NCBI GenBank assembly: GCA_016840085.1
Contig: JAEOTA010000004.1
Span: forward strand, 15,809-79,808
Source of the DNA: Promethearchaeota archaeon
GTDB taxonomy: Archaea > Asgardarchaeota > Lokiarchaeia > Sigyniarchaeales > SOKP01
Direction of reading: 5' to 3'
Length of the DNA stretch: 64,000 nucleotides
The position numbers were made by a program, and so were the translations under genes. Positions 13,489 through 27,516 of this stretch are shown piece by piece. The notes under the pieces are model-generated. The model saw only the letters and a list, made by a program, of their open reading frames with translations. It searched no databases and had not been told where the DNA came from. Position 1 is the stretch's first letter; each line of letters starts with the position of its first letter.

Positions 13489-13983
13489 ATGCATTTAGTT
13501 CTTACTTTTTTCCATCAAATTAAGGGACCAAGCGTATATCTATCTTATCCCGAAGTTGAGCTAGAAGAAGATATCATCAGCTCTCTAATTAAATTTTTTG
13601 ACCTTGAAATCAACGAAACCTTTTTCGAAATTGTTCTAATCACAAAAAGAAAGAAAATAATAAATCTTCACTTTCAAATTCCTTCTCAGTGGGCACGTGG
13701 AAAGAAAGAATTTGTAATGCTCTCTCTTTTAATGAAAAAAGAATATGAAAGTGAACAGTTTTATGCGTTTTTGGTTGATGCTTCATACAGAATTTTAAAT
13801 ACTGATAATGTTTATAAAGCCTTCTATAAATTTGATGATTTTCGAGATGATAACGATATTGAGATAGACCTTACTTTTGAGCAAATAAAGAAAATACTTA
13901 TTAATTGTTTAACCCGCTTGATAACCAGAATAGAGGATAAGATTAAAGGAGTAAACAAAAAAGAACCTTTTCCTTTTTCCTAG
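13489..13983 (+). CDS. small longin/uDENN-like protein (tentative)
   Basis: The N-terminus LTFFHQIKGPSVYLSYP resembles the FHxxKGPxxxxxYP start of uDENN/longin modules. 164 aa. Confidence 0.35.
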   Translation: MHLVLTFFHQIKGPSVYLSYPEVELEEDIISSLIKFFDLEINETFFEIVLITKRKKIINLHFQIPSQWARGKKEFVMLSLLMKKEYESEQFYAFLVDASYRILNTDNVYKAFYKFDDFRDDNDIEIDLTFEQIKKILINCLTRLITRIEDKIKGVNKKEPFPFS

Positions 13984-14356: not shown

Positions 14357-14827
14357 TTATAACAATCCAATTGTATCCGATCTAAATAATTCTTTAACTT
14401 CTTTACTTATTTCTCCTTGATCTACCTGCAAATATCGATTTAAAATAGTAGATATTGCGGGAGCATATTTTTTCATAATAGCTCTAATGAATCCAATTTG
14501 AACATTCCGATCAGTACTGATACATAGTACACCTTTTCCTACTTTTATTGCAAAAATCATACCTTCATAATATTCAGTAATTTGTAAATCAATATTACCA
14601 TACCCTAAAATATGGCCTTGCTCTTCACCTGCAATAAAAACAGCTCCCCCTATAGCACCAATTTTCTTAATTGAAATATTCTGATGATCAGAAAATTTAA
14701 ACTTAGATTGACTTAATATAGTAACACCAGTATCATCTATTATAATAACGTTATTTAATCCTGGCGCGCTATTAATGATTGAAGTAAGTATTTTTTTTAA
14801 TTTAAATTCGTCATCAGAATAACTCAA
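14357..14827 (-). CDS. Roadblock/LC7 (MglB-like) domain protein
   Basis: 156 aa with NVIIIDDTGVTILSQS ... GGAVFIAGEEQG ... MIFAIKVGKGVLCIS, the pattern of Roadblock/LC7 proteins. Confidence 0.6.
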   Translation of the reverse strand: MSYSDDEFKLKKILTSIINSAPGLNNVIIIDDTGVTILSQSKFKFSDHQNISIKKIGAIGGAVFIAGEEQGHILGYGNIDLQITEYYEGMIFAIKVGKGVLCISTDRNVQIGFIRAIMKKYAPAISTILNRYLQVDQGEISKEVKELFRSDTIGLL

Positions 14828-15016: not shown

Positions 15017-15403
15017 CTAAAAAAGTTCCTGTGATTTAAGTAAACCTTTTAACGGTTTCATTCGGCTTTTATAATCTTTAGTTTTTTCTAATAAGATTAA
15101 TAATTTGTAATTTTTTGTCTTATCTAAATTTTTTTTGATCTGAACCAGTTTATTATCCTCTATAAAGTCCCGATTTTTGGTAATCGCAGATAATGCTAAA
15201 GTGTTTTCAAGGATCCATAATTTTTTAGAAATTTTTGATGCAACTGGAAATCCATGACGATCAGTAATAACTCCTGCCACAAAATTTGGAAAGTTCTTTT
15301 CTATCCTGTATAAGAAATATTTAACTTCACTTTCATTTATAATGGTATTGTTTATTGGTTTATCCAATTCTATGACACCTAAATTGTCAATTTGATCTAT
15401 CAA
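15017..15403 (-). CDS. Roadblock/LC7 domain protein
   Basis: 128 aa with VAGVITDRHGFPVASK...LALSAIT. TTG start. Confidence 0.55.
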   Translation of the reverse strand: MIDQIDNLGVIELDKPINNTIINESEVKYFLYRIEKNFPNFVAGVITDRHGFPVASKISKKLWILENTLALSAITKNRDFIEDNKLVQIKKNLDKTKNYKLLILLEKTKDYKSRMKPLKGLLKSQELF

Positions 15404-15567: not shown

Positions 15568-16545
15568 TTATTTATTGTTCTTTTTCAACGAAATTCCAAT
15601 TTTCAAATTTTCCACTAACTCACTAAAGCGATTTCGAACAGTTACTTCTGTTACACAACTTACACGAGCAATACTCCTCTGTGTTCGTCGTTCATTAGAT
15701 AAAATACATGATGCATAAATTGCAGCTGCGCATACCCCTGTAGGACCTCGTCCTGAAGTTAAGCCTCGATCTTCTGCCATTCTTATAATTGTTTTTGCTA
15801 TTTTATGGCATTTTGTAGTCAAATCCAATTCAGAAATAAATCTCGTAAGAAAATCAAGTGGTTTTGTGGGATTTAAATTTAAATCAAGTTCTTTCGAAAT
15901 AAATCGAAAAGATCGACTAATCTCCTTCTTATCAACACGAGCTACATCAGCAATCTCATTTAACGTCCTTGGTACTTTATACATTCTACAAGCCGCATAT
16001 AAGCTTGCAGCAGCAACACCTTCAATACTTCTACCGCGAATTAGATGTGCTTCTACAGCATCTCGATAGATTTTAGCAGCACATTCTCTTAAGTTTTTCT
16101 GAAGATCTAAGTTGGAAGCCATTCTGTCGAGCTCACTAAGAGCAAATGTAAGATTTCTTTCTGTTGCATCTGATACTCTGATTCGACTCTGCCATTTTCG
16201 AAGACGATAGATCTGTCCCCTTAATTTAGCAGGTATTTCTTTGCCAAATATATCTCGATTTTTCCAATCAATCATGGTACTAAGTCCTTTATCATGTATC
16301 ATATAAGTCATAGGAGCACCAGTTCTAGTTCTCTTTTTTTTCTGATCCGCATCAAATGCTCTCCATTCTGGTCCCCGATCAATATGTTTTTCAGAATGAA
16401 CTAAGCCACATTCTTCACATACAAGTAATCCTCTATTTTCATCAAAGAAAATAGCTTTACCACATTCAGAGCAAATACCACTTTCTATACACAAGTTCTC
16501 ATTTGATGCAGAATTTATTTCTCTCCAACTTGAAATAGAACACAC
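15568..16545 (-). CDS. tfb: transcription initiation factor IIB (TFB)
   Basis: N-terminal Zn ribbon CSECGK..CEECG, B-linker, and two cyclin-fold repeats ([10 protein letters not shown] / AAAIYASC). Confidence 0.95.
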
Positions 16546-16589
16546 CTTTTTTAACTATATTCTTTTATTTTAAAAGAATTTTTGGAAAA

Positions 16590-16913
16590 TTATGCTATTT
16601 TAGTATATAATTTGGTATTTGGTTCAAATGGTTGATTAGGTAAAGTCTTTATCGAAATAAAAGGGAGATTAAAGGGACCAAAGATATCTTTTACATTGCC
16701 AATTTTTTCATATTTTTCATTATACACTGGTTGTTTGAAAATTTTTTCGAGACTCTTATTCCACTGTTTAGCTCTAAAGATTTGATGTTTTTTAGATTTT
16801 CCGATGTAGAAAAGATTTAATTTAACCCAGTTTTTTTTCAAAAGAGTCCCTTGCTTTAGCAATGAGATTAACATAAAAGATGGTGAGTAATATTTAAATA
16901 TAATGGTTTTCAT
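16590..16913 (-). CDS. gar1: H/ACA RNP component Gar1
   Basis: Has IGNVKDIFGPFNLPFISIK, the Gar1 signature (GxVxDxFGPxxxPYxxxK). The true start is probably internal (ATG near 16874 or TTG just downstream). Confidence 0.7.
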   Translation of the reverse strand: MKTIIFKYYSPSFMLISLLKQGTLLKKNWVKLNLFYIGKSKKHQIFRAKQWNKSLEKIFKQPVYNEKYEKIGNVKDIFGPFNLPFISIKTLPNQPFEPNTKLYTKIA

Positions 16914-16993
16914 TATTTTTTCTTACAAAAATGGAAATTAATAACTTAATAATCTAATTACAATTTAATCGAATTTTTTATTTAGAAAAAATT

Positions 16994-18094
16994 TCAGCAA
17001 TAATTTTTCTGTAGTTGATATTTTCTCTTGCAATCACATTCAAATCTATTTTGTTCCAACTCACTTAAATTTTGAGAAAGAACAAAATTCTTAAGTAATA
17101 GCTTTGCAGAATTCTCACATTCTCTTTTTAAGCAATTATGTATCCCTCTTCTCGTTCCAGCACCACTAGGATCAGACAAAATTCGAACTTTATCTAAATC
17201 TTTTTGTGTTAGTGATTTTTTTAAACATTTAAATAGGGAATAATACCACGGAGGTCTATATCTATTTTGATACCAGAGATATTCCACAAGAGTGCCTTTT
17301 TGTATGTTCAATGGATTAATCGATATTGTATTTATTTCTAGTTCAATTAGTTTTCTAATTGAATTTACACAATCATCTATAGCAGCTTGTTCATTAAGAA
17401 ATGGTGGTTTAAATAATAAATAAGCTTTTACACCTATATTATACTCTTTACATTCTTTATATACTTCTTTAAAATCTTCGAATAGAAATCCCTTATTAAT
17501 ATAATTGTTTCTAATATAATCATTCACAGTTTCAAGTCCAATAGCGATCTCAACATATTTTTCTTTTAGAAATTCTTTTATCTCAGAAAGGCTCTCTGTA
17601 GTTATATATTCTAATCTGCTTTCTATGACGAATTCTTTAATATTTTCGATTTTTGCAATTCTTTCATAAATAGTTCGCCTAACATCTTCAGTGATTTCTT
17701 TTTCATCAAAAAAACTTCCCGAATTAAATATTTTTAATATATAATTATCATGATCCTTTTCTATCTCGCTAATTTTAGTGTTAATAGCATAATTAAATTG
17801 ATTTATAACTTGAGATTGATCAACATCATCAATATTTGCATCATTTACATATCCACACATCGTACATCCACCAGTTTCACCTAATGACCAACTACATCCT
17901 TTTGTTCTCAGGATAATTGTGAATTGCTTTCCTATTTCATTAATAAGTCGATCTTTTTTTATCCAAAAAGCAATAGGTTGATTTAATTGTTCTTTTCCAT
18001 ATTTTTTCTTGTTTTTTAGAGTTTTTTCTCTAAAAAATTTAACTTTTTCTGCAATATATTCATTATATTCTTTTAAATTACTATTTTTTATCAT
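16994..18094 (-). CDS. radical SAM enzyme for archaeosine formation (RaSEA, TIGR01210-like)
   Basis: LRTKGCSWSLGETGGCTMCGY cluster motif. Overlaps the arcS stop by 14 nt. Confidence 0.7.
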   Translation of the reverse strand: MIKNSNLKEYNEYIAEKVKFFREKTLKNKKKYGKEQLNQPIAFWIKKDRLINEIGKQFTIILRTKGCSWSLGETGGCTMCGYVNDANIDDVDQSQVINQFNYAINTKISEIEKDHDNYILKIFNSGSFFDEKEITEDVRRTIYERIAKIENIKEFVIESRLEYITTESLSEIKEFLKEKYVEIAIGLETVNDYIRNNYINKGFLFEDFKEVYKECKEYNIGVKAYLLFKPPFLNEQAAIDDCVNSIRKLIELEINTISINPLNIQKGTLVEYLWYQNRYRPPWYYSLFKCLKKSLTQKDLDKVRILSDPSGAGTRRGIHNCLKRECENSAKLLLKNFVLSQNLSELEQNRFECDCKRKYQLQKNYC

Positions 18095-20171
18095 TGATTT
18101 TAACTATTCTCCCAGTTTTTGAATTCCTTATAAAATTCGAACCAACTATTAAATTTCCGGTTCCTATTACATCGTTTTTTTCCTTATTTATAATGAACGT
18201 AAAATTGTTTGGGATTAAATCTTGACTGAAATCTATGATCCCCTTTCGAAATAATGTATTACCTTTAATGTGATCTGCATCAAAGACAATCGTATTTGAA
18301 TCTATAGAATAGGGTACTTGAATTAATCGATTAATTCCCTTAAGTGTTAAATCTATTTGGCCTGTAGAGGATTTAAAAACTCCCAATCTTTCCTTGCTTT
18401 TTAAATCTATTAAATTAATATTACCATTAGACTTAAGTTTGATTTGTATTAATTCTTGTGAAATTACTCTCATTCCTGAACCGACACCAAACTGATAATC
18501 TAATATTTTAATAAATTTTCGAATCCACGATTTTGTTAAAAAATCTCCTTTCTTTAACTGTTGTTTAGGGTTATACTTATCCTTGTATTCACTAATTAAA
18601 TATTCTAATGATTGAAGGGATTCTTTTGATGTTAATTTATCTGAAATTTTTGTAAAAAAGAATTTATGAGGTAATTTAGATTTAGCTCTCTCAACAATCT
18701 CATGATATTCATTTTTAAGATGACAAACAATCGGAATATCCTTATCATATTTTTCTAGCATTTTTACGAGCATTTTAGCAGCGATATTCAATTCTTCATT
18801 ATTCCAATCTCCTGTAACTGAAATATCATACGAATTAACAGGATAAATATTTTCAAATTGTCTTGGAATAACTCCTAAAGGTGAAGTCAGAATAAATTCT
18901 TGGAAATTTGGAAATTCTGAAAATTTTCTTATTCTTTCATAAAATAATTTATGAGATTTAGATTCAGAATAAGGCTTTTTAGCTGAGCATGGAAGTAATA
19001 TGATTAAAGTGGTCCATGGTTCAGGTTCAAAATTTATTATTGCTCTTTCTCTAAATTCTTTAAAATCTGGTCGATTATATGAAGATGGTCCAAGGCATCT
19101 AATTTTTCTATTTTTTATAGTTATAGGTGTTTCATATCTCATTAGATTAAAATATTCTTTATCTAACATTTTCAAAATTGAGATTAAATTAGTATCATCA
19201 CACGTAGATTTTTCGACAAAGGCTCTATAATCTTCATAATTTAAATATTGGTTAATTTTATTCATGTAATTAGTTGCCGATATTATATTATGGAGACATA
19301 ATAAATCTATTTTCTCAGAAGAATATTTAATATCAAAAAGATTCATTAATTTTCCTTTACAAGCAACACAAGTACAAGGTAAATACCTCACTTTATATAT
19401 TGGAAGAAGATACTCTATCGTGTCATAGAAATTTTCAGCTGACAAATATAATAAATAAGAACTGTCAATTAGATCCACGCCTAAATATATTAAAATAGGA
19501 TAAAATTTAGGGATTATCCTACCTGAAGCCATTACAACGAGATTGTTGTCCAATTCAGTTTTAATCTCAGAAATAACCCTTGAAATACCTCTAAAATTAC
19601 TAAAATTATCAAAAACATCAGATAAGTTTAACAATTTAATATTTTCATTCTGAATTATAATTGGGATATAGAGTTTAAACAATTCAGAATAATCAAAAAC
19701 TTTAATCGTTATGCCAAAATTAAGATTTGGATATTTTTTTAAGATATATTTGATCTTTTTAAGATATTCTTTTATTTCTTTTTCTGCAAAATCTTTGTTA
19801 ATAGATGTTGTAGGAATATTAAAAGGTAATATTGATATTATCTTGTCTTCAGAGAAGATTTCTAAATTTCTTATTAAAAGATCTTCAAAATTCTCCAAAG
19901 TTCCATTAGAAGAAAAAATAAATCCTGTATCCTTGAATTTTTCACGAAGAAATCCAATTTTTAAAAATATCTCTTTTGAAATAATGAAGAGCTTGTGATT
20001 TTCAAATTCTTGTATAAAACTAAATTGTTTCATTAATGAATTTTTTATAGGAATAATTATATTTGGAGTGTTTATATATAGCTTCCGATCTCTAGATAAT
20101 GATATCCGCCCTATTCTTGAATAACCTATCCTACTGGCTTTTAATTCAAAAAAATAATTCATACTTTTCAA
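18081..20171 (-). CDS. arcS: archaeosine synthase ArcS (TgtA2)
   Basis: Exact ArcS motif PC-x3-KPY-x2-S-x2-H (PCSAKKPYSESKSH), TGT-like Zn site CTCVAC, and a C-terminal PUA-like domain. The likely ATG start is at 20162. Confidence 0.85.
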   Translation of the reverse strand: MKSMNYFFELKASRIGYSRIGRISLSRDRKLYINTPNIIIPIKNSLMKQFSFIQEFENHKLFIISKEIFLKIGFLREKFKDTGFIFSSNGTLENFEDLLIRNLEIFSEDKIISILPFNIPTTSINKDFAEKEIKEYLKKIKYILKKYPNLNFGITIKVFDYSELFKLYIPIIIQNENIKLLNLSDVFDNFSNFRGISRVISEIKTELDNNLVVMASGRIIPKFYPILIYLGVDLIDSSYLLYLSAENFYDTIEYLLPIYKVRYLPCTCVACKGKLMNLFDIKYSSEKIDLLCLHNIISATNYMNKINQYLNYEDYRAFVEKSTCDDTNLISILKMLDKEYFNLMRYETPITIKNRKIRCLGPSSYNRPDFKEFRERAIINFEPEPWTTLIILLPCSAKKPYSESKSHKLFYERIRKFSEFPNFQEFILTSPLGVIPRQFENIYPVNSYDISVTGDWNNEELNIAAKMLVKMLEKYDKDIPIVCHLKNEYHEIVERAKSKLPHKFFFTKISDKLTSKESLQSLEYLISEYKDKYNPKQQLKKGDFLTKSWIRKFIKILDYQFGVGSGMRVISQELIQIKLKSNGNINLIDLKSKERLGVFKSSTGQIDLTLKGINRLIQVPYSIDSNTIVFDADHIKGNTLFRKGIIDFSQDLIPNNFTFIINKEKNDVIGTGNLIVGSNFIRNSKTGRIVKINDKK

Positions 20172-20284
20172 TAAATACGACTAAATTACTGAATTAATTT
20201 TTTTCTATTTAATTTATTGAAATATTCTAAAATTATTAAGAATTCACTCATTGGAAATTAATATATCTTTAAAGTCTTATTTTT

Positions 20285-21607
20285 TTAAAAAATCAGAAAA
20301 TTTGTATATAATTTTAACTCATCTAGGACAAAATGAGTAAAAGTGTCTTCGATTTCTTCTGTTAGATAAAGTTGTCTTATGAAATTTCCATATTCCTCTA
20401 TTTTCTTTACACGAACAATAGCTAATAAACCATATTGTTCGCCTATCCGAAAAAGATCAGTAATGTTTTTGTTATTTTCTAATTTGAAGGCAAGTTCATT
20501 GTATTTGGATGGATCTTTTGGTTTAATTCGGAGTATATACTTACCTTTAAAACCTATTTCTTTCGGAGAGAAATCAACTGTGTAATTTAGAATTACACCT
20601 TGACGTTCAAGTTTTTTAATTCTATTATGTATCGTTGATTGTGATATTTCATCATTATGTTGTTCCTTAAAGATTTTTTTTATTTCGTATGTTGATATTG
20701 GTTTAAGTCCTTGCCCATCCCGCAAAATTTTTAATATTTTATAATCAATATTGTCTATTTTAAGATTTAGATCGATGTTTTTCTTATCTATTTTTATCCC
20801 AATCTTCCTTATAGCTTTAATTATCTTATTTATTACGTGTTCAGCGTCTGTAGTCTCTCTTAAACCGCTTACAATTATTTTACCATTTGAAGAAATTAAA
20901 ATGGTTGTGTTAATTTTTTCAAGCTTCATAACAATACCCGGAAATTTCTTGGGATTATATTTAATATCCATATGATTTCGACCGATCAGATTTAAATCAA
21001 TTTTCTCTGCAAGTTCTACCTCTGCATTCTCAATTATATAATCTGAATTAGTATCATAATCTTTTTTCTTTTTCAATATGAAATTTAATTGTTCTACGAG
21101 CTCCTCTTCAAAAGTCATATTTAAGCTCCTTAAGCTAATTCCATTTGTTTTAAACACCTTAATGGTTTCAATGATCTGATATTTTTTAAAATATGATCGC
21201 GCCATAATTTTATCAATTGTATTTAATATCTGATAATATTCCTCGGGGGATTTAAAGATAAATAAGGCGAATAGAGAAAATTCTCCAAAAATACCATCTA
21301 ACATTTTTATCTGGGGGATATTCAGCAATTCCTCAACAAGTTCAGGCTCTTTTGGGTTAGTTTTAATTTCAAGCATGACATATTTTAGATTATTCGGCCT
21401 AAGATTTGGATTAATATTAATTGTAAAATTAGTAATTATTTTTCGATCCCTTAAATTATCAAGCTTGTTTTGATATGTTTGTCTAGAGATACCTATCGCA
21501 CGGGAATTTTTTGAAATAATAAATTTGGTTTTTCCACTTAAATTTTTTATAAAACGCTGGACTTCTACTCGATCTTTATTATTGTTCATAATATAACAGT
21601 TTTGCAT
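20285..21607 (-). CDS. chimeric regulator: Lrp/AsnC module, single TBP-fold repeat, Lrp/AsnC module
   Basis: The N- and C-terminal thirds each have an HTH plus RAM-like domain. The middle reads IENAEVELAEKIDLNLIGRNHMDIKYNPKKFPGIVMKLEKINTTILISSNGKIIVSGLRETTDAEHVINKII. This aligns with one TBP repeat (IENIVAS..KYNPEEFPGIICHL..LLIFSSGKLVVTGAKS). Confidence 0.7.
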   Translation of the reverse strand: MQNCYIMNNNKDRVEVQRFIKNLSGKTKFIISKNSRAIGISRQTYQNKLDNLRDRKIITNFTININPNLRPNNLKYVMLEIKTNPKEPELVEELLNIPQIKMLDGIFGEFSLFALFIFKSPEEYYQILNTIDKIMARSYFKKYQIIETIKVFKTNGISLRSLNMTFEEELVEQLNFILKKKKDYDTNSDYIIENAEVELAEKIDLNLIGRNHMDIKYNPKKFPGIVMKLEKINTTILISSNGKIIVSGLRETTDAEHVINKIIKAIRKIGIKIDKKNIDLNLKIDNIDYKILKILRDGQGLKPISTYEIKKIFKEQHNDEISQSTIHNRIKKLERQGVILNYTVDFSPKEIGFKGKYILRIKPKDPSKYNELAFKLENNKNITDLFRIGEQYGLLAIVRVKKIEEYGNFIRQLYLTEEIEDTFTHFVLDELKLYTNFLIF

Positions 21608-21727
21608 TTTCTTTTAGAAATATTAATTATATGTAAAACCTATTATAAAAATATTTGCACTTAACCAAAAATAGCTTTATTAATTAATTAAAATTATAAA
21701 GTTTATAACAATAAAAGTGAATTTTAA

Positions 21728-22996
21728 ATGGTAAATTATAAAGTTGCCGATGAAAGTTTAGCAGAAAAAGGAAAGGAAGCACTATATATTGCAGAAAATA
21801 AAATGCCTGTAACCGCGAAAGTTCTGAGAGATCGTTTTGCTAAAGAAAAACCATTGGAAGGTATCACAATAGCAGGCTGCCTTCATGTAACAAAAGAAAC
21901 AGGTAATTTGGCTCGCACTTTAAAAGCTGGAGGTGCTGAAGTATATTTATGTGGGAGTAATCCTCTCTCAACTCAAGATGATGTTACGGCTGCTCTGGTT
22001 CAGGAAGGAATAAATGTATTCGCATGGCATGGTAATACAGATGAGGAATTCTATTGGTGTATTCGTGAGTGTCTTAAGGCTAAACCCAATATCCTAATTG
22101 ATGATGGTGCCGATATGATTGTTACTGCGCATCAAGAGTTTGAAGATTTGATAAAATCGGGCACTATTATAGCATGCCAAGAGGAAACTACTACGGGTGT
22201 TAAAAGATTTAGAGCGATGGAAAAGCAAGGAAAATTGAAGATACCTTTATTTCCTGTCAATGATGCTAGATGTAAGAATCAATTTGATAACGAGCTTGGA
22301 ACGGGACAAGGAATTGTTTCTGCGATTTATGGAATGCATATTCTTTTTGCGGGTAAGGTTTGTGTGATTAGTGGATATGGACACTGTTCATCTGGAATGG
22401 CACTAAGAGCAAGGGGTCTTGGTGCTAACGTGGTTGTCACTGAAGTTGATCCGATTAAAGCACTTCAAGCTAAATTTGCAGGATATCAAGTTATGCCTAT
22501 AGCAGAAGCTCTACCAATTGCTGATATAATCCTAACAGCGACAGGGTGCAAACACGTGATTGCTCCGACAAAAGAGATGTTCAATAAGTTAAAAGACGGA
22601 GTAATTCTTGGTAATCTTGGACATTTTGACATTGAAATTCCAACCAAGGAATTATACGAATACGCAAAATGGATAAAACCTATTCGTTCTAATGTGGAAG
22701 AATTGACCTTTCCTGATGGCAAAAGAGTTTATCTACTCGCCAAAGGGAGATTAGCTAACCTTGTTTTATCTGAGGGACACCCCAGTGAGATCATGGATAT
22801 GTCTTTTGCCCTTCAATCCTTAATGTCGGAATATATTGTAAAAAATAAAGATTCCCTAAAACCAGGTATGCTTGAGGTTCCAACTGATATTGATGATAAA
22901 GTTGGTTTTCTAAAACTTAAAGCTATGGGTGTTGAGATTGATACCTTAACAACGGAACAATATAATTACATACACGGTTATGAAGAAGGAACTTAA
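21728..22996 (+). CDS. ahcY: adenosylhomocysteinase (archaeal type)
   Basis: 422 aa with CLHVTKETGNLARTLKAGGAEV and the NAD-binding GYGHCSSG motif. Confidence 0.95.
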   Translation: MVNYKVADESLAEKGKEALYIAENKMPVTAKVLRDRFAKEKPLEGITIAGCLHVTKETGNLARTLKAGGAEVYLCGSNPLSTQDDVTAALVQEGINVFAWHGNTDEEFYWCIRECLKAKPNILIDDGADMIVTAHQEFEDLIKSGTIIACQEETTTGVKRFRAMEKQGKLKIPLFPVNDARCKNQFDNELGTGQGIVSAIYGMHILFAGKVCVISGYGHCSSGMALRARGLGANVVVTEVDPIKALQAKFAGYQVMPIAEALPIADIILTATGCKHVIAPTKEMFNKLKDGVILGNLGHFDIEIPTKELYEYAKWIKPIRSNVEELTFPDGKRVYLLAKGRLANLVLSEGHPSEIMDMSFALQSLMSEYIVKNKDSLKPGMLEVPTDIDDKVGFLKLKAMGVEIDTLTTEQYNYIHGYEEGT

Positions 22997-23225
22997 TTTT
23001 TATTTTATTTTTTTTTTACCTGCTGTTCACCCTGATCAATATGAAGGATCTGGTCTTTAAATCTCCCATTCACTACACCATTTTTTAACATAACCAGTTG
23101 ATTTATTTTACATTTTGGTAATATTATTTAATGGCATATTCCATACTCAAATAAAAAATCAGAATAAAATTTTAAGTCTTTACCTTTCTTTCAATTACCT
23201 CTTCTTTTTTAAAGGTAATATTGTC

Positions 23226-23401: not shown

Positions 23402-25018
23402 TTATTCAATTCTTTTAAGTTTTCTTAACCCGAATATAAAGATGGGAATAGCTATTAATGCTTGAATACCATTAAACCCTGCTAAGAATTCATAAATCGC
23501 CCAATTTGAAGTAGGGGGTTCCGTAAATAGTGCGGCGATTAAAAAGATAAAACCTATGAACTGTCCCATTTGAATTGCTACGGTTATAAACATATTCCCT
23601 CCCATATTTTTTCCTTTTTCTTCAAACGCAGGACGAAAACATTGTACTCCAATTGTTATAACGATTGCAAATATAGCAGAAAATAAAAAAGCGACAAAAG
23701 AAGATAGTATATCTATGAATTCAAATTCTAAAATGATACTGAGCGCAATTGTGAGTCCTATATCCATTAGAATTATTAATATTACCAGCGAAAACAAATA
23801 AGAATAGACCAGCCCGTTGACAGACCTAGGGGATTTCTTATATACCCAAAGTAGATCCTTAGAACCTACAAAGATATAACTCCCAAATATAATACTCAAT
23901 ATAAATCCACCCATAAAGGTTCTTATTAATCTATATACTGCTGTAGTTATAAATTGACCACCCCCCATTTCAGGCACTATTAAGGGATACACAATACCGA
24001 AAAAAGCAATGATTCCTATTGCGTAGACGAGTTTAGAAATATTTTCTTTTTTACGAAAGAATCCTTTAAATTGAACGATGACTAATCCTTCCCATTTTTT
24101 CCCGATAAACATCCTAAAAAATCCATATAGTTTACTCTCTTCTTCGATAATCGTAGCACCTTTTTCAGTACCCCCTTCTAGGCTATAAAAAGTATTTGCT
24201 TTCTTATATGAAAGATATAATACAAATAATGTTATGATAATAACTAATCCAATATTCATCCAAATATTTAGTATATAAGATTCCAAAAGCGATGGCTCTA
24301 AGATATAAACAGCTATACTTGAAAACCAATATGCTGGATAAATAGAAAGCCAATTCTTAAGTTCTGGATGCTCTAGCAAATATTTAAAGAAATATTGTAA
24401 ACTATAGATAAGGGCGACCATTCCTATAGATATTATCATGAGCAGAACCTTGGCAAGATCTCGATATTTTTCCGAATCGGCGATTTTATGTTCGATCCAA
24501 GAAGATAGTATAGACCCTAACAACAATGCAAATAAACACATTCCAAAAACGTCAGTATAAATTACCAAAGTTTGTATGAAGGTTAGATCTATAAGGGGAT
24601 TGATGAGACCTACAATGGCAGGAGTAAGCCCAAGAACAAACAATAGCATAAACGGTAATTTTCCCACAAATTCTCCAAAAAAGATATCTCCCGCGGTTAT
24701 AGGGGCTGCTAAAATCATCTCTTTATGACCAATCTCTGTTTGCCTATAGATAAAATTAAGCGGGTAGAGTATTATAATTATAAAGAATATCATAAGCATA
24801 TACTCAATGATTAACGCAACCGCAGGAACAATAATTGGTTTAAACTCCTCACTTTGAGCTAAAGTCGGCATAAAAGAATCAAATAATAATGGTGCTAAAA
24901 TAAATCCCCATATCAATAACACACCATAGAGAATTACAAAAAAAAGCAGGCGATGTCTTCGAAATTTACTAGTTCTCCTTTTAAGTTCATTTTTTGCAAT
25001 TACTTTCCATAAACCCAT
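23402..25018 (-). CDS. multi-pass membrane protein, putative ABC-2-like permease
   Basis: 538 aa with about 12 hydrophobic segments. Lies directly downstream of an ABC ATPase gene. Confidence 0.6.
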   Translation of the reverse strand: MGLWKVIAKNELKRRTSKFRRHRLLFFVILYGVLLIWGFILAPLLFDSFMPTLAQSEEFKPIIVPAVALIIEYMLMIFFIIIILYPLNFIYRQTEIGHKEMILAAPITAGDIFFGEFVGKLPFMLLFVLGLTPAIVGLINPLIDLTFIQTLVIYTDVFGMCLFALLLGSILSSWIEHKIADSEKYRDLAKVLLMIISIGMVALIYSLQYFFKYLLEHPELKNWLSIYPAYWFSSIAVYILEPSLLESYILNIWMNIGLVIIITLFVLYLSYKKANTFYSLEGGTEKGATIIEEESKLYGFFRMFIGKKWEGLVIVQFKGFFRKKENISKLVYAIGIIAFFGIVYPLIVPEMGGGQFITTAVYRLIRTFMGGFILSIIFGSYIFVGSKDLLWVYKKSPRSVNGLVYSYLFSLVILIILMDIGLTIALSIILEFEFIDILSSFVAFLFSAIFAIVITIGVQCFRPAFEEKGKNMGGNMFITVAIQMGQFIGFIFLIAALFTEPPTSNWAIYEFLAGFNGIQALIAIPIFIFGLRKLKRIE

Positions 25019-25041
25019 TGTGAGAAATACCTCTTTTTATC

Positions 25042-25854
25042 TTATTTTTTCTGCTTTTTTTTTTTAGGAATATGGTTATTCATGTTTTTCTCGTCTCGCC
25101 ACGCAAGTAGATCATCAATATGAGTTGCCCCAATTATTTTTAGATACGCATCTTCTAAATCTTTTGCACTCTGGGACTCAATGATCTCTTTAGGTTTTCC
25201 TTGTACCTTGAGCGCACCCTTATCGATTATACCAATTTTGTCGCACAATTCTTCCGCAGCATCTAATAAGTGCGTGCAAATGAAGATTGTCTTATCTGCT
25301 TTTTTCGCAAGCACAGAAATGAGGTCTTTTACCATTCTTGCTGCTGCAGGATCTAAATTCGAGGTAGGTTCATCGAGAAATATTATTTTAGGGTCTTGAA
25401 TCAATGCCGCACATAGACATACTTTCTGTTTCATCCCCCGTGAATACCCCTCTAATAGGTCATTTTCACGCCCTTCCAAATCAAAAATATCCAGTAGTTC
25501 GTTAACTCTAGACGCAATCCTGTCTTCAGGAAGATAATATAATTCTCCTATAAATTCTAAGAATTCCTTTGCGGTTAGCTTCTGGTATAATCCAGGTGAT
25601 TCTGGCAAGAATCCGCAGATCATTTTCACATCGCGACTTTGGGTTATAATATCAAAACCTCCCACCGTTGCGGTTCCCGCAGTAGGTCTTATGATTGCGT
25701 TCAACATCCTAACAGTAGTCGTTTTCCCTGCTCCATTAGGTCCTAATAGTCCATAAGTCTGACCAAATGGAATCTCTAAATTTAATTCATCCACAGCCAC
25801 CACATTTCCAAAAACTTTTACAAGATTCGTGGTTTTTACCGCAAAATTATTCAT
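25042..25854 (-). CDS. ABC transporter ATP-binding protein
   Basis: GPNGAGKTT, YSRGMKQK, IIFLDEPT. I prefer the ATG at 25854, which is preceded by GGAGGAG, over the track's TTG at 25914. Confidence 0.85.
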   Translation of the reverse strand: MNNFAVKTTNLVKVFGNVVAVDELNLEIPFGQTYGLLGPNGAGKTTTVRMLNAIIRPTAGTATVGGFDIITQSRDVKMICGFLPESPGLYQKLTAKEFLEFIGELYYLPEDRIASRVNELLDIFDLEGRENDLLEGYSRGMKQKVCLCAALIQDPKIIFLDEPTSNLDPAAARMVKDLISVLAKKADKTIFICTHLLDAAEELCDKIGIIDKGALKVQGKPKEIIESQSAKDLEDAYLKIIGATHIDDLLAWRDEKNMNNHIPKKKKQKK

Positions 25855-26044
25855 TTTTGTTTTTTCTCCTCCTCTTTCAATATTATTATCTTCTTTGATT
25901 ACTATTAACCACAATTAACATTTACTAATCACAACTTTATTCTTTAAAATTTAAAGTTAAGCCTTAAAAATTTAGGTAAAGATTAATTTTCTCGTTATAA
26001 AATACGGACAATTCTAGAAAAAATTAATTATCATTTTGAGCAAG

Positions 26045-26417
26045 GGCATTATTCGGTGATTTTGGAGCACAATAAGTCCTGTTTACTATCCATTCAAGCA
26101 CTTGTCCAAAAACGCTACTTAAAACAACATTTAATCCAATTCGTATTATATGTTTGTTAGCTAAGGGAAGATTAGCAAATTTAGTTTTATCCGAAGGACA
26201 TCCTAGTGAAGTTATGGATATGTCATTCGCTCTTCAATCTTTAATGTCTGAATATATAGTCAAAAATAAAGATTTATTAAAACCAGGCATTATTGAAGTA
26301 CCTGCTGATATTGATAACAAGGTTGGCTTTTTAAAACTTCAATCCATGGGTATAGAAATTGATGCCTTAACTGAAGAGCAATATAATTATATCCACGGGT
26401 ACGAGGAAGGTACTTAA
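26045..26417 (+). pseudogene. diverged 3' relic of a second adenosylhomocysteinase gene
   Basis: 26154..26417 encodes the last 86 aa of AhcY, with about 75/86 residues identical to 22739..22996 by hand alignment and many synonymous differences. Weaker frameshifted similarity (GIIxGxxG, NPIR) extends back to about 26045. Confidence 0.8.
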
Positions 26418-26484
26418 TTACAAAAATACCTAATTTCAATTTTTTTTTTGTCTAGTTTTTAAAATTAGCAAATAGATTTTTCTT

Positions 26485-27516
26485 TTATATTTTTGGATAT
26501 AGAATATCTTTAACATTTACTTCTCCGTATATTTCAAAGGCAAGTTTTCTTAAACCCTCTAATCCAATCGGTTCCTCGATAAGTTTATCAGATTGCCAAA
26601 TTTTGATCTGTTGAAATTCATTTTTAATTTCTTTTAAATAATTTTTTTGTAAAGAGTGTATTTTTCCACAGAAATTACACGTCTTAGCATGTTCTTTGGG
26701 AATTAACATGTTTATATGAACTGCCTCTAAATTAATATACCGCTTTGTTAAATCTCTAGCTCTTTTAATTTCTTCAAAACTTGGTTTTTCAGCAATAGTT
26801 ACAAGTCTAAGTGAACCTATATTGTGAATTAATTCAGAAATTCGTTCTCCTCGTTTTTCGAGATCTACTATCATATTGAATATTTCTCTTCCTAATTCCT
26901 TTCTTTCTTTATAATCATCAAAAGGTTTCGTAATATTTCTCCACATCTTTGAAACATTTCTAATAGCTCCTTTAATAGAGTTATAAAAGTTCAAGGAATA
27001 TTTCAATACAACCTTAACTTGATCTTCTGGAATTTCAAAAAGTGTAATCATATTAGCAGTAGGAGGAAAATCAGCTATGATAATATCAAATTGCACATTT
27101 TGACTGTTCGTTTCTTCTGCATCTAAAATTTTCTGAAAAAACATAGCGTTCTTAAGTGCTAATGGAATAGAATCTGCTGTAAAAGTTGTGTCTATAAATT
27201 TCTCAACTTGAGGAATTAAACCTACAATTGGCATTTTCTTCATTAAAGTTTTCATTTTATCTATTAAATCAGTTGTATATTCTTCAGCATAGATATTAGC
27301 ATCTGGTTCAATACCCCAAAGATTATTTGTGAGAGGTGTTAATTTGTTTCCAATCTCCTGTTCAAATAGATCACTAAGATTATGTGCCATATCAAATGAA
27401 ATAAGAAGAAAGTTTTTATCTGGAAGGAGATCTGATAATCTTACAGCTGTTGCTGCACTTATTGTGCTCTTTCCTACCCCTCCTTTTCCCCCAAGGACTA
27501 ATATAGCTTCTAACAC
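26485..27516 (-). CDS. ArsA/Get3-family P-loop ATPase
   Basis: Deviant Walker A GGKGGVGKST, DMAHNLSD (equivalent to the DPAHSL switch motif), and CNFCGK near the C-terminus. Confidence 0.75.
   Translation of the reverse strand: MLEAILVLGGKGGVGKSTISAATAVRLSDLLPDKNFLLISFDMAHNLSDLFEQEIGNKLTPLTNNLWGIEPDANIYAEEYTTDLIDKMKTLMKKMPIVGLIPQVEKFIDTTFTADSIPLALKNAMFFQKILDAEETNSQNVQFDIIIADFPPTANMITLFEIPEDQVKVVLKYSLNFYNSIKGAIRNVSKMWRNITKPFDDYKERKELGREIFNMIVDLEKRGERISELIHNIGSLRLVTIAEKPSFEEIKRARDLTKRYINLEAVHINMLIPKEHAKTCNFCGKIHSLQKNYLKEIKNEFQQIKIWQSDKLIEEPIGLEGLRKLAFEIYGEVNVKDILYPKI

What the first reader, a model, noticed from the sequence alone, without database searches (positions are those of the whole stretch)
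20285..21607. Chimeric protein: two Lrp/AsnC modules flanking a single TBP repeat
The middle ~85 residues align convincingly with one repeat of the TATA-binding protein (KYNPKKFPGIVMKL, ILISSNGKIIVSG, and an acidic-helix segment after it). Both flanks are complete HTH plus RAM (Lrp/AsnC) units. Canonical TBP needs two repeats to form the DNA saddle. A half-TBP embedded in an oligomerising Lrp scaffold could rebuild a saddle by dimerisation, or could act as a decoy for TFB/TFE. I do not know of a characterised protein with this architecture.
Basis: partly seen in the sequence, partly recalled or inferred. Interest (0 to 1): 0.65.

Follow-up and report, generated by a model that had tools for sequence, protein, structure and literature searches.

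The report
Lrp regulator carrying one TBP repeat
This real, conserved Asgard-archaeal gene encodes a two-module Lrp/AsnC-type transcription regulator with a single repeat of the TATA-binding protein inserted into its inter-module linker; the architecture appears undescribed and shows that half of the TBP "saddle" can be reused as a stand-alone module.

Summary
ORF 20285-21607 (-) encodes HTH+RAM, one TBP repeat, then HTH+RAM. The TBP match is strong: Pfam E=2e-16, P. woesei TBP E=3e-21, and all 44 best fold matches of the isolated insert are TBPs.

It is not an assembly artefact. Four independent metagenome assemblies reproduce both junctions. About 36 species-level Asgard (Lokiarchaeia-type) genomes carry the same architecture in the same gene neighbourhood.

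New findings:
- About 39 other species carry an orthologous 318-aa gene lacking exactly aa 166-281.
- A tree built from the flanks indicates one gain and three independent losses of the insert.
- The insert derives from the N-terminal TBP repeat.
- It is under purifying but relaxed selection (omega 0.39, against 0.11 for the flanks).
- It keeps the outer concave-face DNA-contact residues, including both intercalating Phe in the family (the second is Ser in this protein). It has lost the central ones on strand S1.

Most likely it is a single-chain pseudo-dimeric Lrp regulator with an accessory minor-groove or TATA-contacting half-saddle. That function is inferred, not shown. A TFB-decoy role is disfavoured. 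No paper in the library searched describes this architecture.

The parts
20285..21607 (-). Whole ORF as listed (440 aa, stop codon included). The probable true CDS is 20285..21589 (434 aa, start at M7).
   Evidence: The family consensus starts at M7, and the first ATG lies in the conserved non-coding block TTTGCAAAAyTGTAAT.
21428..21580 (-). N-module helix-turn-helix (about aa 10-60). The recognition helix 'SRQTYQNKLD' is nearly invariant in the family.
   Evidence: (R42 and Q43 invariant).
21134..21394 (-). N-module RAM (Lrp/AsnC ligand-binding/oligomerisation) domain, about aa 72-158. It is the most conserved part of the protein.
   Evidence: Pfam PF01037 gives two stretches. Mean column entropy is 0.45 bits. 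Homologous to the C-module.
20765..21112 (-). Insert, aa 166-281. It is exactly absent from the 318-aa orthologues.
   Evidence: gap 166-281 in short forms. (same synteny). (gain and losses).
21059..21112 (-). Acidic amphipathic linker helix (aa 166-183; 'FEEELVEQL...' here, 'FEEELLDQL...' in the family consensus). It is absent from the earliest-branching insert-bearing forms.
   Evidence: (helix 7-24 of the 126-aa model).
20798..21025 (-). Single TBP repeat (aa 195-270) with order S1-H1-S2-S3-S4-H2. It is of the N-terminal-repeat type ('SGLR' here, like 'TGLR' in Asgard TBP N-repeats). F222 is retained. Position 239 (nt 20891-20893) is Ser here but Phe in 89 of 97 family members.
20588..20755 (-). 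C-module helix-turn-helix (about aa 285-340). The recognition helix 'SQSTIHNRIKKLE' is nearly invariant and differs from that of the N-module.
   Evidence: HTH_24; FL11/PH1519.
20312..20545 (-). C-module RAM domain (about aa 355-432).
   Evidence: Pfam PF01037 best stretch 364-429. PDB Lrp matches.
21590..21727 (.). Divergent promoter region shared with the AdoHcy hydrolase gene. It is highly conserved in 46 species, equally upstream of insert-bearing and insert-free genes. Just before the start codon it contains a 14-bp imperfect inverted repeat with an AT-rich centre (family consensus TTGCA-AAAT-TGTAA), which is a candidate operator.
   Evidence: 83 of 220 columns at 90% identity or more. 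No Rfam match and no significant RNA fold. The operator role is inferred.
15568..20171 (-). Conserved co-directional neighbours: ArcS-like archaeosine synthase alpha (18081..20171), RaSEA radical-SAM protein (16994..18094), Gar1 (16590..16913), TFB (15568..16545).
21728..22996 (+). Divergently transcribed S-adenosyl-L-homocysteine hydrolase gene, a conserved neighbour.

Best explanation
The gene encodes a single-chain, pseudo-dimeric Lrp/AsnC-type (feast/famine) transcription regulator. It is specific to Lokiarchaeia-type Asgard archaea.

Shown:
- Two diverged HTH+RAM modules sit in one polypeptide.
- One TBP repeat, derived from the N-terminal repeat of an Asgard-like TBP, was inserted once into the short linker that joins RAM-1 to HTH-2.
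- The insert was later lost precisely in three lineages.
- It is under purifying but relaxed selection.

Inferred:
- The two different, nearly invariant recognition helices read an asymmetric operator. This probably includes sites in the gene's own very conserved promoter, which it shares with ahcY.
- The RAM domains mediate effector sensing and higher oligomerisation, as in other Lrp proteins.
- The half-saddle is an accessory module. Its conserved concave face (Phe222, Phe239 in most members, Lys/Arg 221/228/243, Val/Leu) contacts the minor groove of AT-rich or TATA-like DNA next to the HTH sites. This would add affinity or bending, or would occlude the TATA box from the genuine TBP.
- It tunes the regulator but is not essential to it.
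For: Domain assignment.

Real and conserved: 488 homologues; 91 species-level genomes, all Asgard, one copy each among the 79 loci read; four independent assemblies span both junctions with no differences.

Orthology of insert-bearing and insert-free forms: identical synteny, AdoHcyase <- | gene -> ArcS-like -> RaSEA -> Gar1 -> TFB.

One gain and three losses: NJ tree on the flanks only. Bootstrap support is 90% for the crown clade and 0% for monophyly of the long forms, and each nested insert-free group nests among long forms in 93-97% of replicates. Nested short forms keep the long-form-specific N-side junction, with three different deletion outcomes.

N-repeat origin: every insert matches the N-repeat of TBP P0121 better than the C-repeat (60-95 bits against 37-58). 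The family HMM prefers the N-repeat in 77 of 98 TBPs.

Selection: median omega is 0.107 for the flanks and 0.388 for the TBP core, over 425 pairs.

Concave face retained: F222 in 97/97, F239 in 89/97, K/R221 in 93/97, K/R228 in 83/97, K/R243 in 91/97, and V/I226, L/I237 and V/I245 conserved. The stirrup and the outer helix faces are variable.

Background from PMC2995911: Lrp dimers present themselves to the minor groove of an AT-rich centre, usually bind at or next to promoters, and archaeal Lrp activators act through TBP.
Against: - No DNA-binding, oligomerisation or expression data exist, and no RNA runs were found.
- The full-length model is poor (pLDDT 60.5, pTM 0.36) and no coordinates are available, so the position of the half-saddle relative to the HTHs is unknown.
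- The window's own protein has Ser in place of the second intercalating Phe.
- The central DNA contacts of TBP on S1 (Asn, Val) are not kept, and Glu occupies DNA-facing S1 positions.
- Three lineages lost the insert with no visible change in the scaffold or in the promoter blocks. Any contribution to binding at the gene's own promoter is therefore dispensable.
- Conserved exposed hydrophobic residues could equally serve a protein partner or an intramolecular contact.
Confidence: 0.45

Rival explanations
1. Saddle reconstitution. Lrp-type oligomerisation brings two copies of the half-saddle together through S1-S1 pairing. This forms a symmetric N-N pseudo-TBP on an effector-controlled scaffold, which binds and bends TATA-like DNA as a full saddle. 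It could then either repress or nucleate initiation.
For: - Lrp proteins oligomerise through RAM domains (PMC2995911).
- S1 is present in all members with a strand-like alternating pattern.
- Both Phe positions and the basic residues are conserved in the family.
- TBP itself is a duplicated repeat (PMC3597702).
Against: - The S1 residues that make the central DNA contacts in TBP are lost, and Glu sits at DNA-facing positions, as expected for a solvent-exposed edge strand.
- S1 and the preceding linker are the most variable part of the insert.
- The insert is N-repeat-like, so an N-N saddle would lack the C-terminal stirrup that TFB uses (established knowledge).
Confidence: 0.15
2. Protein-interaction module. 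The half-TBP does not touch DNA. Instead it binds a partner through its concave or convex surface. Candidates are the genuine TBP, TFB/TFE, a histone, or the protein's own acidic linker helix acting as an autoinhibitory latch of the TAND1/Mot1 type. This would hard-wire the Lrp-TBP cross-talk known from Ptr2.
For: - Archaeal Lrp activators act by direct contact with TBP (PMC2995911).
- TBP-like domains in other contexts mediate protein-protein contacts (PMC3597702).
- A conserved acidic amphipathic helix precedes the repeat in about three quarters of members.
- TFB is a conserved neighbour.
Against: - The stirrup and outer helix faces, which are the usual partner surfaces of TBP, are variable.
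- The N-repeat origin argues against TFB binding.
- The TFB linkage is the same in insert-free orthologues.
- The earliest-branching insert-bearing forms lack the acidic helix, so a latch cannot be the original function.
Confidence: 0.2
3. Largely passive passenger or spacer. The repeat was captured by chance in a permissive linker. It is kept mainly because it folds autonomously and does no harm, contributing at most spacing between RAM-1 and HTH-2.
For: - Three independent precise losses.
- 3.5-fold more relaxed constraint than the flanks.
- The scaffold sequence and promoter blocks are unchanged with or without the insert.
- The second Phe is lost in the window protein.
Against: - Omega of about 0.39 over hundreds of pairs indicates real purifying selection.
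- The insert is retained in about 36 species-level lineages.
- Solvent-exposed concave-face hydrophobic and basic residues are the best-conserved positions, which a mere spacer would not require.
- A second Asgard protein family independently carries a single TBP repeat.
Confidence: 0.18
4. Assembly or frameshift artefact that fuses separate Lrp and TBP genes.
For: None found.
Against: - The same architecture occurs in 93 of the 120 listed protein clusters and in about 36 species-representative genomes from many studies.
- Four independent run assemblies cover both junctions with no differences.
- The reading frame is continuous, and the flanks are orthologous to an uninterrupted 318-aa gene.
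Confidence: 0.01

Closest known systems
TATA-binding protein (archaeal TBP, e.g. Pyrococcus woesei 1PCZ/1AIS; nearest relative found: P0121, a 218-aa two-repeat TBP from marine sediment whose cluster member P0275 lies on an Asgard-type contig)
   Same: The same repeat fold and order of elements (S1-H1-S2-S3-S4-H2). Identity is 29-33% to solved TBPs and 40-48% to the P0121 N-repeat. The YNPxxFPG motif, the first intercalating Phe, the basic phosphate-contact residues and (in most family members) the second Phe are conserved.
   Different: There is one repeat, not two, and it is embedded in another protein. The central S1 DNA contacts are lost, the stirrup is variable, and there is no C-terminal repeat and so no canonical TFB-binding stirrup. 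It is not a general transcription factor by architecture.
Lrp/AsnC (feast/famine) regulators, closest FL11/PH1519 (1RI7, 2E1C) and LysM
   Same: An HTH plus RAM module. The best characterised matches are the lysine-responsive FL11 (E=2.5e-14) and the LysM model (E=4.5e-17). It is promoter-proximal and divergently arranged next to metabolic genes.
   Different: Two diverged modules are fused in one chain (a pseudo-dimer with two different recognition helices) instead of a homodimer, and a foreign TBP repeat sits in the linker. All equivalog models score far below their cut-offs, so it is not LysM, FL11 or Lrp proper.
Ptr2 / LysM / Ss-LrpB type activation by TBP recruitment
   Same: A functional coupling between an Lrp-family regulator and TBP at archaeal promoters (PMC2995911).
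   Different: In those systems the coupling is a non-covalent contact between the RAM surface and a complete TBP. Here half a TBP is part of the regulator itself. Whether it relates to recruitment is unknown.
Monopartite TBP-domain proteins (halobacterial TbpA; about 95-aa Thermococcales proteins) and TBP-like domains of RNase HIII and DNA glycosylases (Brindefalk et al. 2013, PMC3597702)
   Same: A single TBP-type domain functioning outside the two-repeat context. RNase HIII shows that one such domain can serve within a multidomain nucleic-acid-binding protein.
   Different: Those are stand-alone proteins or very diverged domains. This insert is a recent, clearly TBP-derived repeat (Pfam TBP above its cut-off), inserted internally in a transcription regulator, and restricted to Asgard archaea.

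Membership tests
Lrp/AsnC (feast/famine regulatory protein) family | N-terminal helix-turn-helix DNA-binding domain | tested here: met
   C-module: HTH_24 scores 23.7 bits against a cut-off of 21.9, and the full-length alignment to FL11 gives E=2.5e-14. N-module: it is seen only through homology to the C-module (E=3e-7), a weak PH0061 match (E=0.016) and modelled helices.
Lrp/AsnC (feast/famine regulatory protein) family | C-terminal RAM (alpha-beta sandwich) effector-binding/oligomerisation domain, PF01037 | tested here: met
   PF01037 scores 53 bits against a cut-off of 25, with two stretches. Foldseek finds Lrp structures at E down to 3e-8.
Lrp/AsnC (feast/famine regulatory protein) family | Dimer or higher oligomer as the DNA-binding unit; binds 13-17 bp imperfect inverted repeats with an AT-rich centre | not testable with these tools
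   Only a candidate site was found (consensus TTGCA-AAAT-TGTAA, just upstream of the start) in a very conserved promoter. No multimer modelling or binding assay was possible.
Lrp/AsnC (feast/famine regulatory protein) family | Small-molecule (usually amino-acid) effector | not testable with these tools
   The nearest characterised relatives respond to lysine (LysM, FL11). The neighbours use lysine and SAM (ArcS-like, RaSEA, AdoHcy hydrolase). This is a hint only.
TATA-binding protein (general transcription factor) | Two tandem TBP repeats in one chain forming the ten-stranded saddle | tested here: not met
   One Pfam TBP stretch only. tblastn of the insert against the window finds no second repeat and no canonical TBP gene.
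TATA-binding protein (general transcription factor) | TBP-repeat fold | tested here: met
   Pfam E=2e-16. PDB E=3e-21. The isolated-insert model has pTM 0.70, and its 44 top fold matches are all TBPs at RMSD 2.6-3.0 A.
TATA-binding protein (general transcription factor) | Pair of DNA-intercalating Phe per repeat plus the central Asn/Val minor-groove contacts on S1 | tested here: inconclusive
   F222 is invariant. The second Phe is present in 89/97 family members but is Ser in this protein. The S1 Asn/Val are not conserved, and Glu sits at DNA-facing S1 positions. The mapping of contact residues rests on established TBP-DNA structures (own knowledge).
TATA-binding protein (general transcription factor) | TFB/TFIIB binding through the C-terminal repeat stirrup | tested here: not met
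   The insert is of the N-terminal-repeat type and its stirrup is variable. Binding itself was not assayed.
Monopartite TBP-domain proteins (PMC3597702) | Stand-alone protein of fewer than 150 aa consisting of one TBP domain | tested here: not met
   The repeat is internal to a 434/440-aa protein. The apparently single-repeat hits in the representative library were mostly truncated TBPs.
Siroheme decarboxylase AhbA/AhbB / NirDL (Lrp-like enzymes, some fused in tandem) | Match to AhbA/AhbB models or to the AsnC_trans_reg2 domain | tested here: not met
   AhbB scores E=0.012 and 15 bits against a cut-off of 125. PF17805 scores E=0.1. The regulator models LysM and Lrp score 1e-15 to 1e-17.

The most novel reading that the evidence does not exclude
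Asgard archaea use single TBP repeats as portable promoter-targeting modules. On the oligomerising, effector-sensing tandem-Lrp scaffold, two half-saddles would assemble into a metabolite-gated alternative TATA-binding factor. This would be a living example of the homodimeric half-TBP stage postulated for the origin of TBP, and it would directly couple metabolic state to the choice or blockade of core promoters. The second, unrelated single-repeat fusion (P0180/P0289) would be another instance of the same principle.
Probability: 0.12. Interest if true: 0.85.

Novelty: new variant of a known kind. Interest (0 to 1): 0.6.

Why it matters
TBP is the universal promoter-recognition factor of archaea and eukaryotes, and its two-repeat saddle is assumed to have arisen from a single-repeat ancestor. 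A clearly TBP-derived single repeat under purifying selection, sitting inside a bacterial-type regulator in the closest archaeal relatives of eukaryotes, offers two things.

First, it is a natural test of what half a saddle can do: bind DNA alone, pair up, or bind partners.

Second, it is a new way of wiring specific regulators to core-promoter DNA.

Nature has also supplied the controls. Orthologues differ essentially only by the presence of the insert, there are three independent deletions, and early forms lack the acidic linker helix. Simple comparative biochemistry could therefore be decisive. Current databases label the family only as 'Lrp/AsnC ligand binding domain-containing protein'.

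Tried and rejected
1. Artefact hypothesis: rejected.

2. Canonical TBP or a second repeat in the window: none found. None was found in the 84 related loci held at that point, other than the inserts themselves.

3. Full-length AlphaFold2 model: too uncertain for inter-domain geometry (pLDDT 60.5, pTM 0.36). Model coordinates are not exposed.

4. Regulon search: the two most distinctive conserved promoter blocks do not recur in the window above chance.

5. Riboswitch or structured-RNA explanation for the conserved intergenic region: no Rfam match and no significant fold (z = 0.77 and -1.04).

6. Expression evidence: no RNA runs hold the gene.

7. My first count suggesting that about a quarter of members lack strand S1 was an extraction artefact. 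Rechecking showed that S1 is always present and that only the linker helix is missing in short-linker forms.

8. 'True' single-domain TBP proteins among the best hits (P0125, P0128, P0149, P0187, P0213) look like truncated or frameshifted two-repeat TBPs.

9. Siroheme-decarboxylase-like enzyme reading: rejected on scores.

10. Literature: six searches aimed at this architecture found no description; one search returned only the 2013 TBP-domain survey, which predates Asgard genomes. The library is incomplete, so prior mention elsewhere cannot be excluded.

11. Co-transcription with ArcS: the downstream spacer is variable (55-163 nt) and has its own conserved TATA-like block. The genes are probably separate transcription units.
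Full report
**1.

The window has about 29% G+C. It carries a 440-aa ORF at 20285..21607 on the minus strand.

- Pfam assigns aa 195-268 to the TBP repeat family (PF00352, E=2.1e-16, 59.9 bits against a gathering cut-off of 22.9).
- Pfam also finds the Lrp/AsnC RAM domain (PF01037, 53 bits, two stretches) and an HTH_24 motif.
- NCBIfam gives the same picture. TBP models match one repeat only, and LysM/Lrp/AsnC models match aa 280-435, all far below equivalog cut-offs.
- Against solved structures the best hit is Pyrococcus woesei TBP (E=3.2e-21). The one query segment aligns to both repeats of TBP. The C-terminal 150 residues align end-to-end with the Lrp-family protein FL11/PH1519 (E=2.5e-14).
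- The N-terminal 165 residues are only weakly recognised by external models (PH0061, E=0.016). They are nevertheless homologous to the C-terminal module (30% identity over 89 aa, E=3e-7) and model as three helices plus a beta-alpha-beta-beta-alpha-beta domain.

An AlphaFold2 model of the isolated insert (aa 160-285) has pTM 0.70. All 44 of its best PDB fold matches are TATA-binding proteins, with 75-81 aligned residues, RMSD 2.6-3.0 A and about 30% identity. No other fold appears.

**2. It is not an artefact.**

- The large protein collection holds 488 relatives. Of the 120 listed, 93 are 400-443 aa with the same Pfam pair. They come from many independent metagenomes and MAGs labelled Promethearchaeota, Lokiarchaeia, Thor-, Hermod- or Heimdallarchaeota.
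- A scan of one genome per species found relatives in 91 genomes, all Asgard. Among the 79 loci read, each genome carries one copy.
- Four marine-sediment metagenome runs hold the locus. In each, a single independently assembled contig spans both insert junctions with no differences.

**3. The insert is a lineage-specific accessory of a highly conserved tandem-Lrp protein.**

About half of the relatives are 311-334 aa and lack exactly aa 166-281 of the window protein. They are otherwise 72-84% identical to it.

Both forms occupy the same genomic position: AdoHcy hydrolase (divergent) | this gene | ArcS-like archaeosine synthase | RaSEA radical-SAM protein | Gar1 | TFB. They are therefore orthologues.

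A neighbour-joining tree built from the Lrp flanks alone gives the following:
- All insert-bearing genes fall in one crown clade (90% bootstrap).
- All 27 basal sequences lack the insert.
- Three small insert-free groups nest among insert-bearing genes (93-97% of replicates).
- Insert-bearing genes alone are never monophyletic (0%).

The linkers agree with this. The nested insert-free genes retain the long-form-specific N-side junction ('ISL[RK]KSxxSF...') joined directly to '...DxDY', with three different deletion outcomes. The basal genes have a different linker ('IELDDNKIDPNFEID').

The simplest history is one insertion followed by three independent, in-frame losses. The earliest-branching insert-bearing genes carry a bare repeat of about 85 aa. 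The 25-aa acidic amphipathic helix ('FEEELLDQL...') that precedes the repeat in most members, including this one, was added later.

**4. Origin of the insert.**

Searching 1.8 billion representative proteins with the insert alone returns canonical two-repeat TBPs. The best is a 218-aa TBP (P0121). A member of its cluster (P0275) lies on a contig with an Arf/Ras-family GTPase and archaeal ThrRS, which is Asgard-like.

Every family member's insert matches the N-terminal repeat of that TBP better than the C-terminal one (60-95 bits against 37-58). An HMM of 97 inserts prefers the N-repeat in 77 of 98 TBPs. The 'TGL[RK]' signature of the N-repeat is shared.

**5. Constraint and surfaces.**

The flanks are very conserved: column entropy is 0.45-0.9 bits and pairwise omega is about 0.11. 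The insert is more variable (1.6-1.9 bits) but still under purifying selection, with omega of about 0.39 over 425 pairs.

Within the repeat, the best-conserved positions are those that face DNA in TBP on strands S2-S4:
- the first intercalating Phe (F222, 97/97);
- the second (position 239, Phe in 89/97, but Ser in this window's protein);
- Lys/Arg at 221, 228 and 243;
- Val/Ile/Leu at 226, 237 and 245;
- Thr/Ser/Asn at 247.

The stirrup and the outer helix faces vary. By contrast, strand S1 forms the seam between the two repeats in TBP and carries the central Asn/Val contacts. Here it has lost those residues and shows an I-E-I-E-I pattern with Glu on the DNA-facing side. The mapping of contact residues rests on the published TBP-DNA structures (own knowledge).

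**6. Regulatory context.**

The 125-bp region between this gene and the divergent AdoHcy hydrolase gene is strikingly conserved in 46 species (83 alignment columns at 90% identity or more). It is equally conserved upstream of insert-bearing and insert-free genes.

It holds AT-rich palindromic blocks and a TATA-like block. Immediately before the start codon there is a 14-bp imperfect inverted repeat with an AT-rich centre (consensus TTGCA-AAAT-TGTAA). That is the format of Lrp operators described in PMC2995911.

The window ORF's first ATG lies inside this block and is not an ATG in other species, so M7 is the likely start.

The region matches no Rfam family and does not fold better than shuffles. 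The blocks do not recur elsewhere in the window above chance.

The ArcS-like gene downstream has a variable spacer with its own conserved TATA-like block, so the genes are probably separately transcribed.

Both recognition helices ('SRQTYQNKLD' and 'SQSTIHNRIKKLE') are nearly invariant and differ from each other. This predicts an asymmetric operator.

**7. Interpretation.**

Shown: a single-chain tandem Lrp/AsnC protein with a genuine, N-repeat-derived TBP half-saddle in the RAM-1 to HTH-2 linker. It is Asgard-specific, was gained once and lost three times, and is selectively maintained but less constrained than the scaffold.

Inferred: the scaffold works as a pseudo-dimeric feast/famine-type regulator, probably autoregulating at its conserved promoter. 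The half-saddle is an accessory module.

I favour minor-groove contact with AT-rich or TATA-like DNA adjacent to the HTH sites, either aiding binding and bending or occluding the TATA box (confidence about 0.45). The reasons are:
- the solvent-exposed concave-face residues are what selection preserves;
- Lrp proteins already face the minor groove of AT-rich DNA at promoters.

Rivals:
- Saddle reconstitution by oligomerisation (0.15). It is weakened by the degenerate, acidic S1.
- A protein-interaction or autoinhibitory-latch role (0.2). It is weakened by the variable stirrup and helices, and by the absence of the acidic helix in early forms.
- A near-passive spacer (0.18). It is supported by the repeated loss and weakened by omega of 0.39 and the conserved exposed surface.

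A link to lysine or SAM metabolism is suggested by the nearest characterised relatives (LysM, FL11) and by the neighbours (ArcS uses lysine, PMC11298593; RaSEA is a radical-SAM enzyme; AdoHcy hydrolase). It is only a hint.

**8. Comparison and novelty.**

By architecture the protein is not a TBP. It has one repeat and no C-terminal stirrup. It is also not any named Lrp equivalog.

The 2013 survey of the TBP-domain superfamily lists stand-alone single-domain proteins and very diverged TBP-like domains, but no Lrp fusion, and it predates Asgard genomes (PMC3597702). Six literature searches aimed at this architecture found no description. Databases call the family only 'Lrp/AsnC ligand binding domain-containing protein'.

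I rate it a new variant of a known kind. It is interesting to specialists in archaeal transcription and in TBP evolution, above all because natural insert-free orthologues provide ready controls.

**9. Also seen.**

A second, unrelated Asgard family (P0180/P0289, 320 aa) carries a single C-terminal TBP repeat (Pfam E=1.9e-23) fused to a domain homologous to window ORF 13489..13983 (E=3e-9). One such gene lies in the same assembly as L081, which has the insert-free tandem Lrp. Single TBP repeats thus seem to have been co-opted more than once in this lineage.

Noticed in passing
window 13489-13983 (+); proteins P0180/P0289; locus L086 3054-4016: A second single-TBP-repeat fusion family exists in Asgard metagenomes. 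It is 320 aa, with an N-terminal domain of about 220 aa without a Pfam match plus a C-terminal TBP repeat (Pfam E=1.9e-23). Its 13-member cluster comes from independent contigs. The N-domain is homologous to the unannotated 164-aa window ORF 13489..13983 (tblastn E=3e-9), which itself has no TBP repeat. P0289 lies in GCA_030615145.1, the same assembly whose tandem-Lrp gene (L081) lacks the insert.
   Followed up: partly
window 22739-22998 and 26160-26419 (with 23402-25914 between): A 260-nt direct repeat (79% identity, 3421 nt apart) duplicates the 3' end of the AdoHcy hydrolase gene as an 87-aa ORF fragment (26154..26417). Between the copies lies an ABC transporter pair (a 538-aa membrane protein without a Pfam hit, plus a 290-aa ATPase) with higher G+C (0.34 against 0.27). 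Related genomes have different genes in this slot. It looks like a cassette insertion that duplicated the target gene's end. No integrase was seen.
   Followed up: partly
window 21590-21727: The divergent ahcY/regulator promoter region is unusually conserved for non-coding DNA across 46 species: 83 of 220 alignment columns at 90% identity or more. The blocks are TAATTTTAATTAATTAATAAA, TTTTTGGTyAArTGCAAATATTTATATA, TTAACATTTAATTAATAAT and TTTGCAAAATTGTAATAAT-ATG. The ORF's annotated first ATG (21605-21607) is part of the last block.
   Followed up: yes
window about 20228-20250 (upstream of the ArcS-like gene): A conserved block CTAAATTCTTAATAA lies about 60-70 nt upstream of the ArcS-like start, inside an otherwise variable spacer of 55-163 nt. 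It is probably that gene's own promoter element.
   Followed up: partly
proteins P0217, P0131, P0192 (representative library): Other unusual TBP architectures turned up among the insert's relatives: a 466-aa TFB-core plus two-repeat TBP fusion (P0217), a TBP with an insertion of about 160 aa between its repeats (P0131), and a 702-aa protein with four TBP repeats followed by a hydrophobic segment and a long tail (P0192). Their organisms are unknown.
   Followed up: no
window 14357-14827 (-), 15017-15403 (-), 26485-27516 (-): Conserved members of the same gene neighbourhood include a roadblock/LAMTOR3-like protein (PF08923 MAPKK1_Int, E=8e-6), an unannotated 128-aa protein, and a GET3/TRC40/ArsA-family ATPase (TIGR00345, 159.6 bits against a cut-off of 135). 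These eukaryote-like components are typical of Asgard genomes.
   Followed up: no
loci L020, L025-L027, L032, L038, L042, L049 and others: MAGs labelled Hermod-, Thor-, Hod- or Odinarchaeota (mostly from one study) interleave at very short distances with 'Promethearchaeota' MAGs in the flank tree. The family may really be confined to Lokiarchaeia-type genomes, with the labels being inconsistent. This was not resolved.
   Followed up: no
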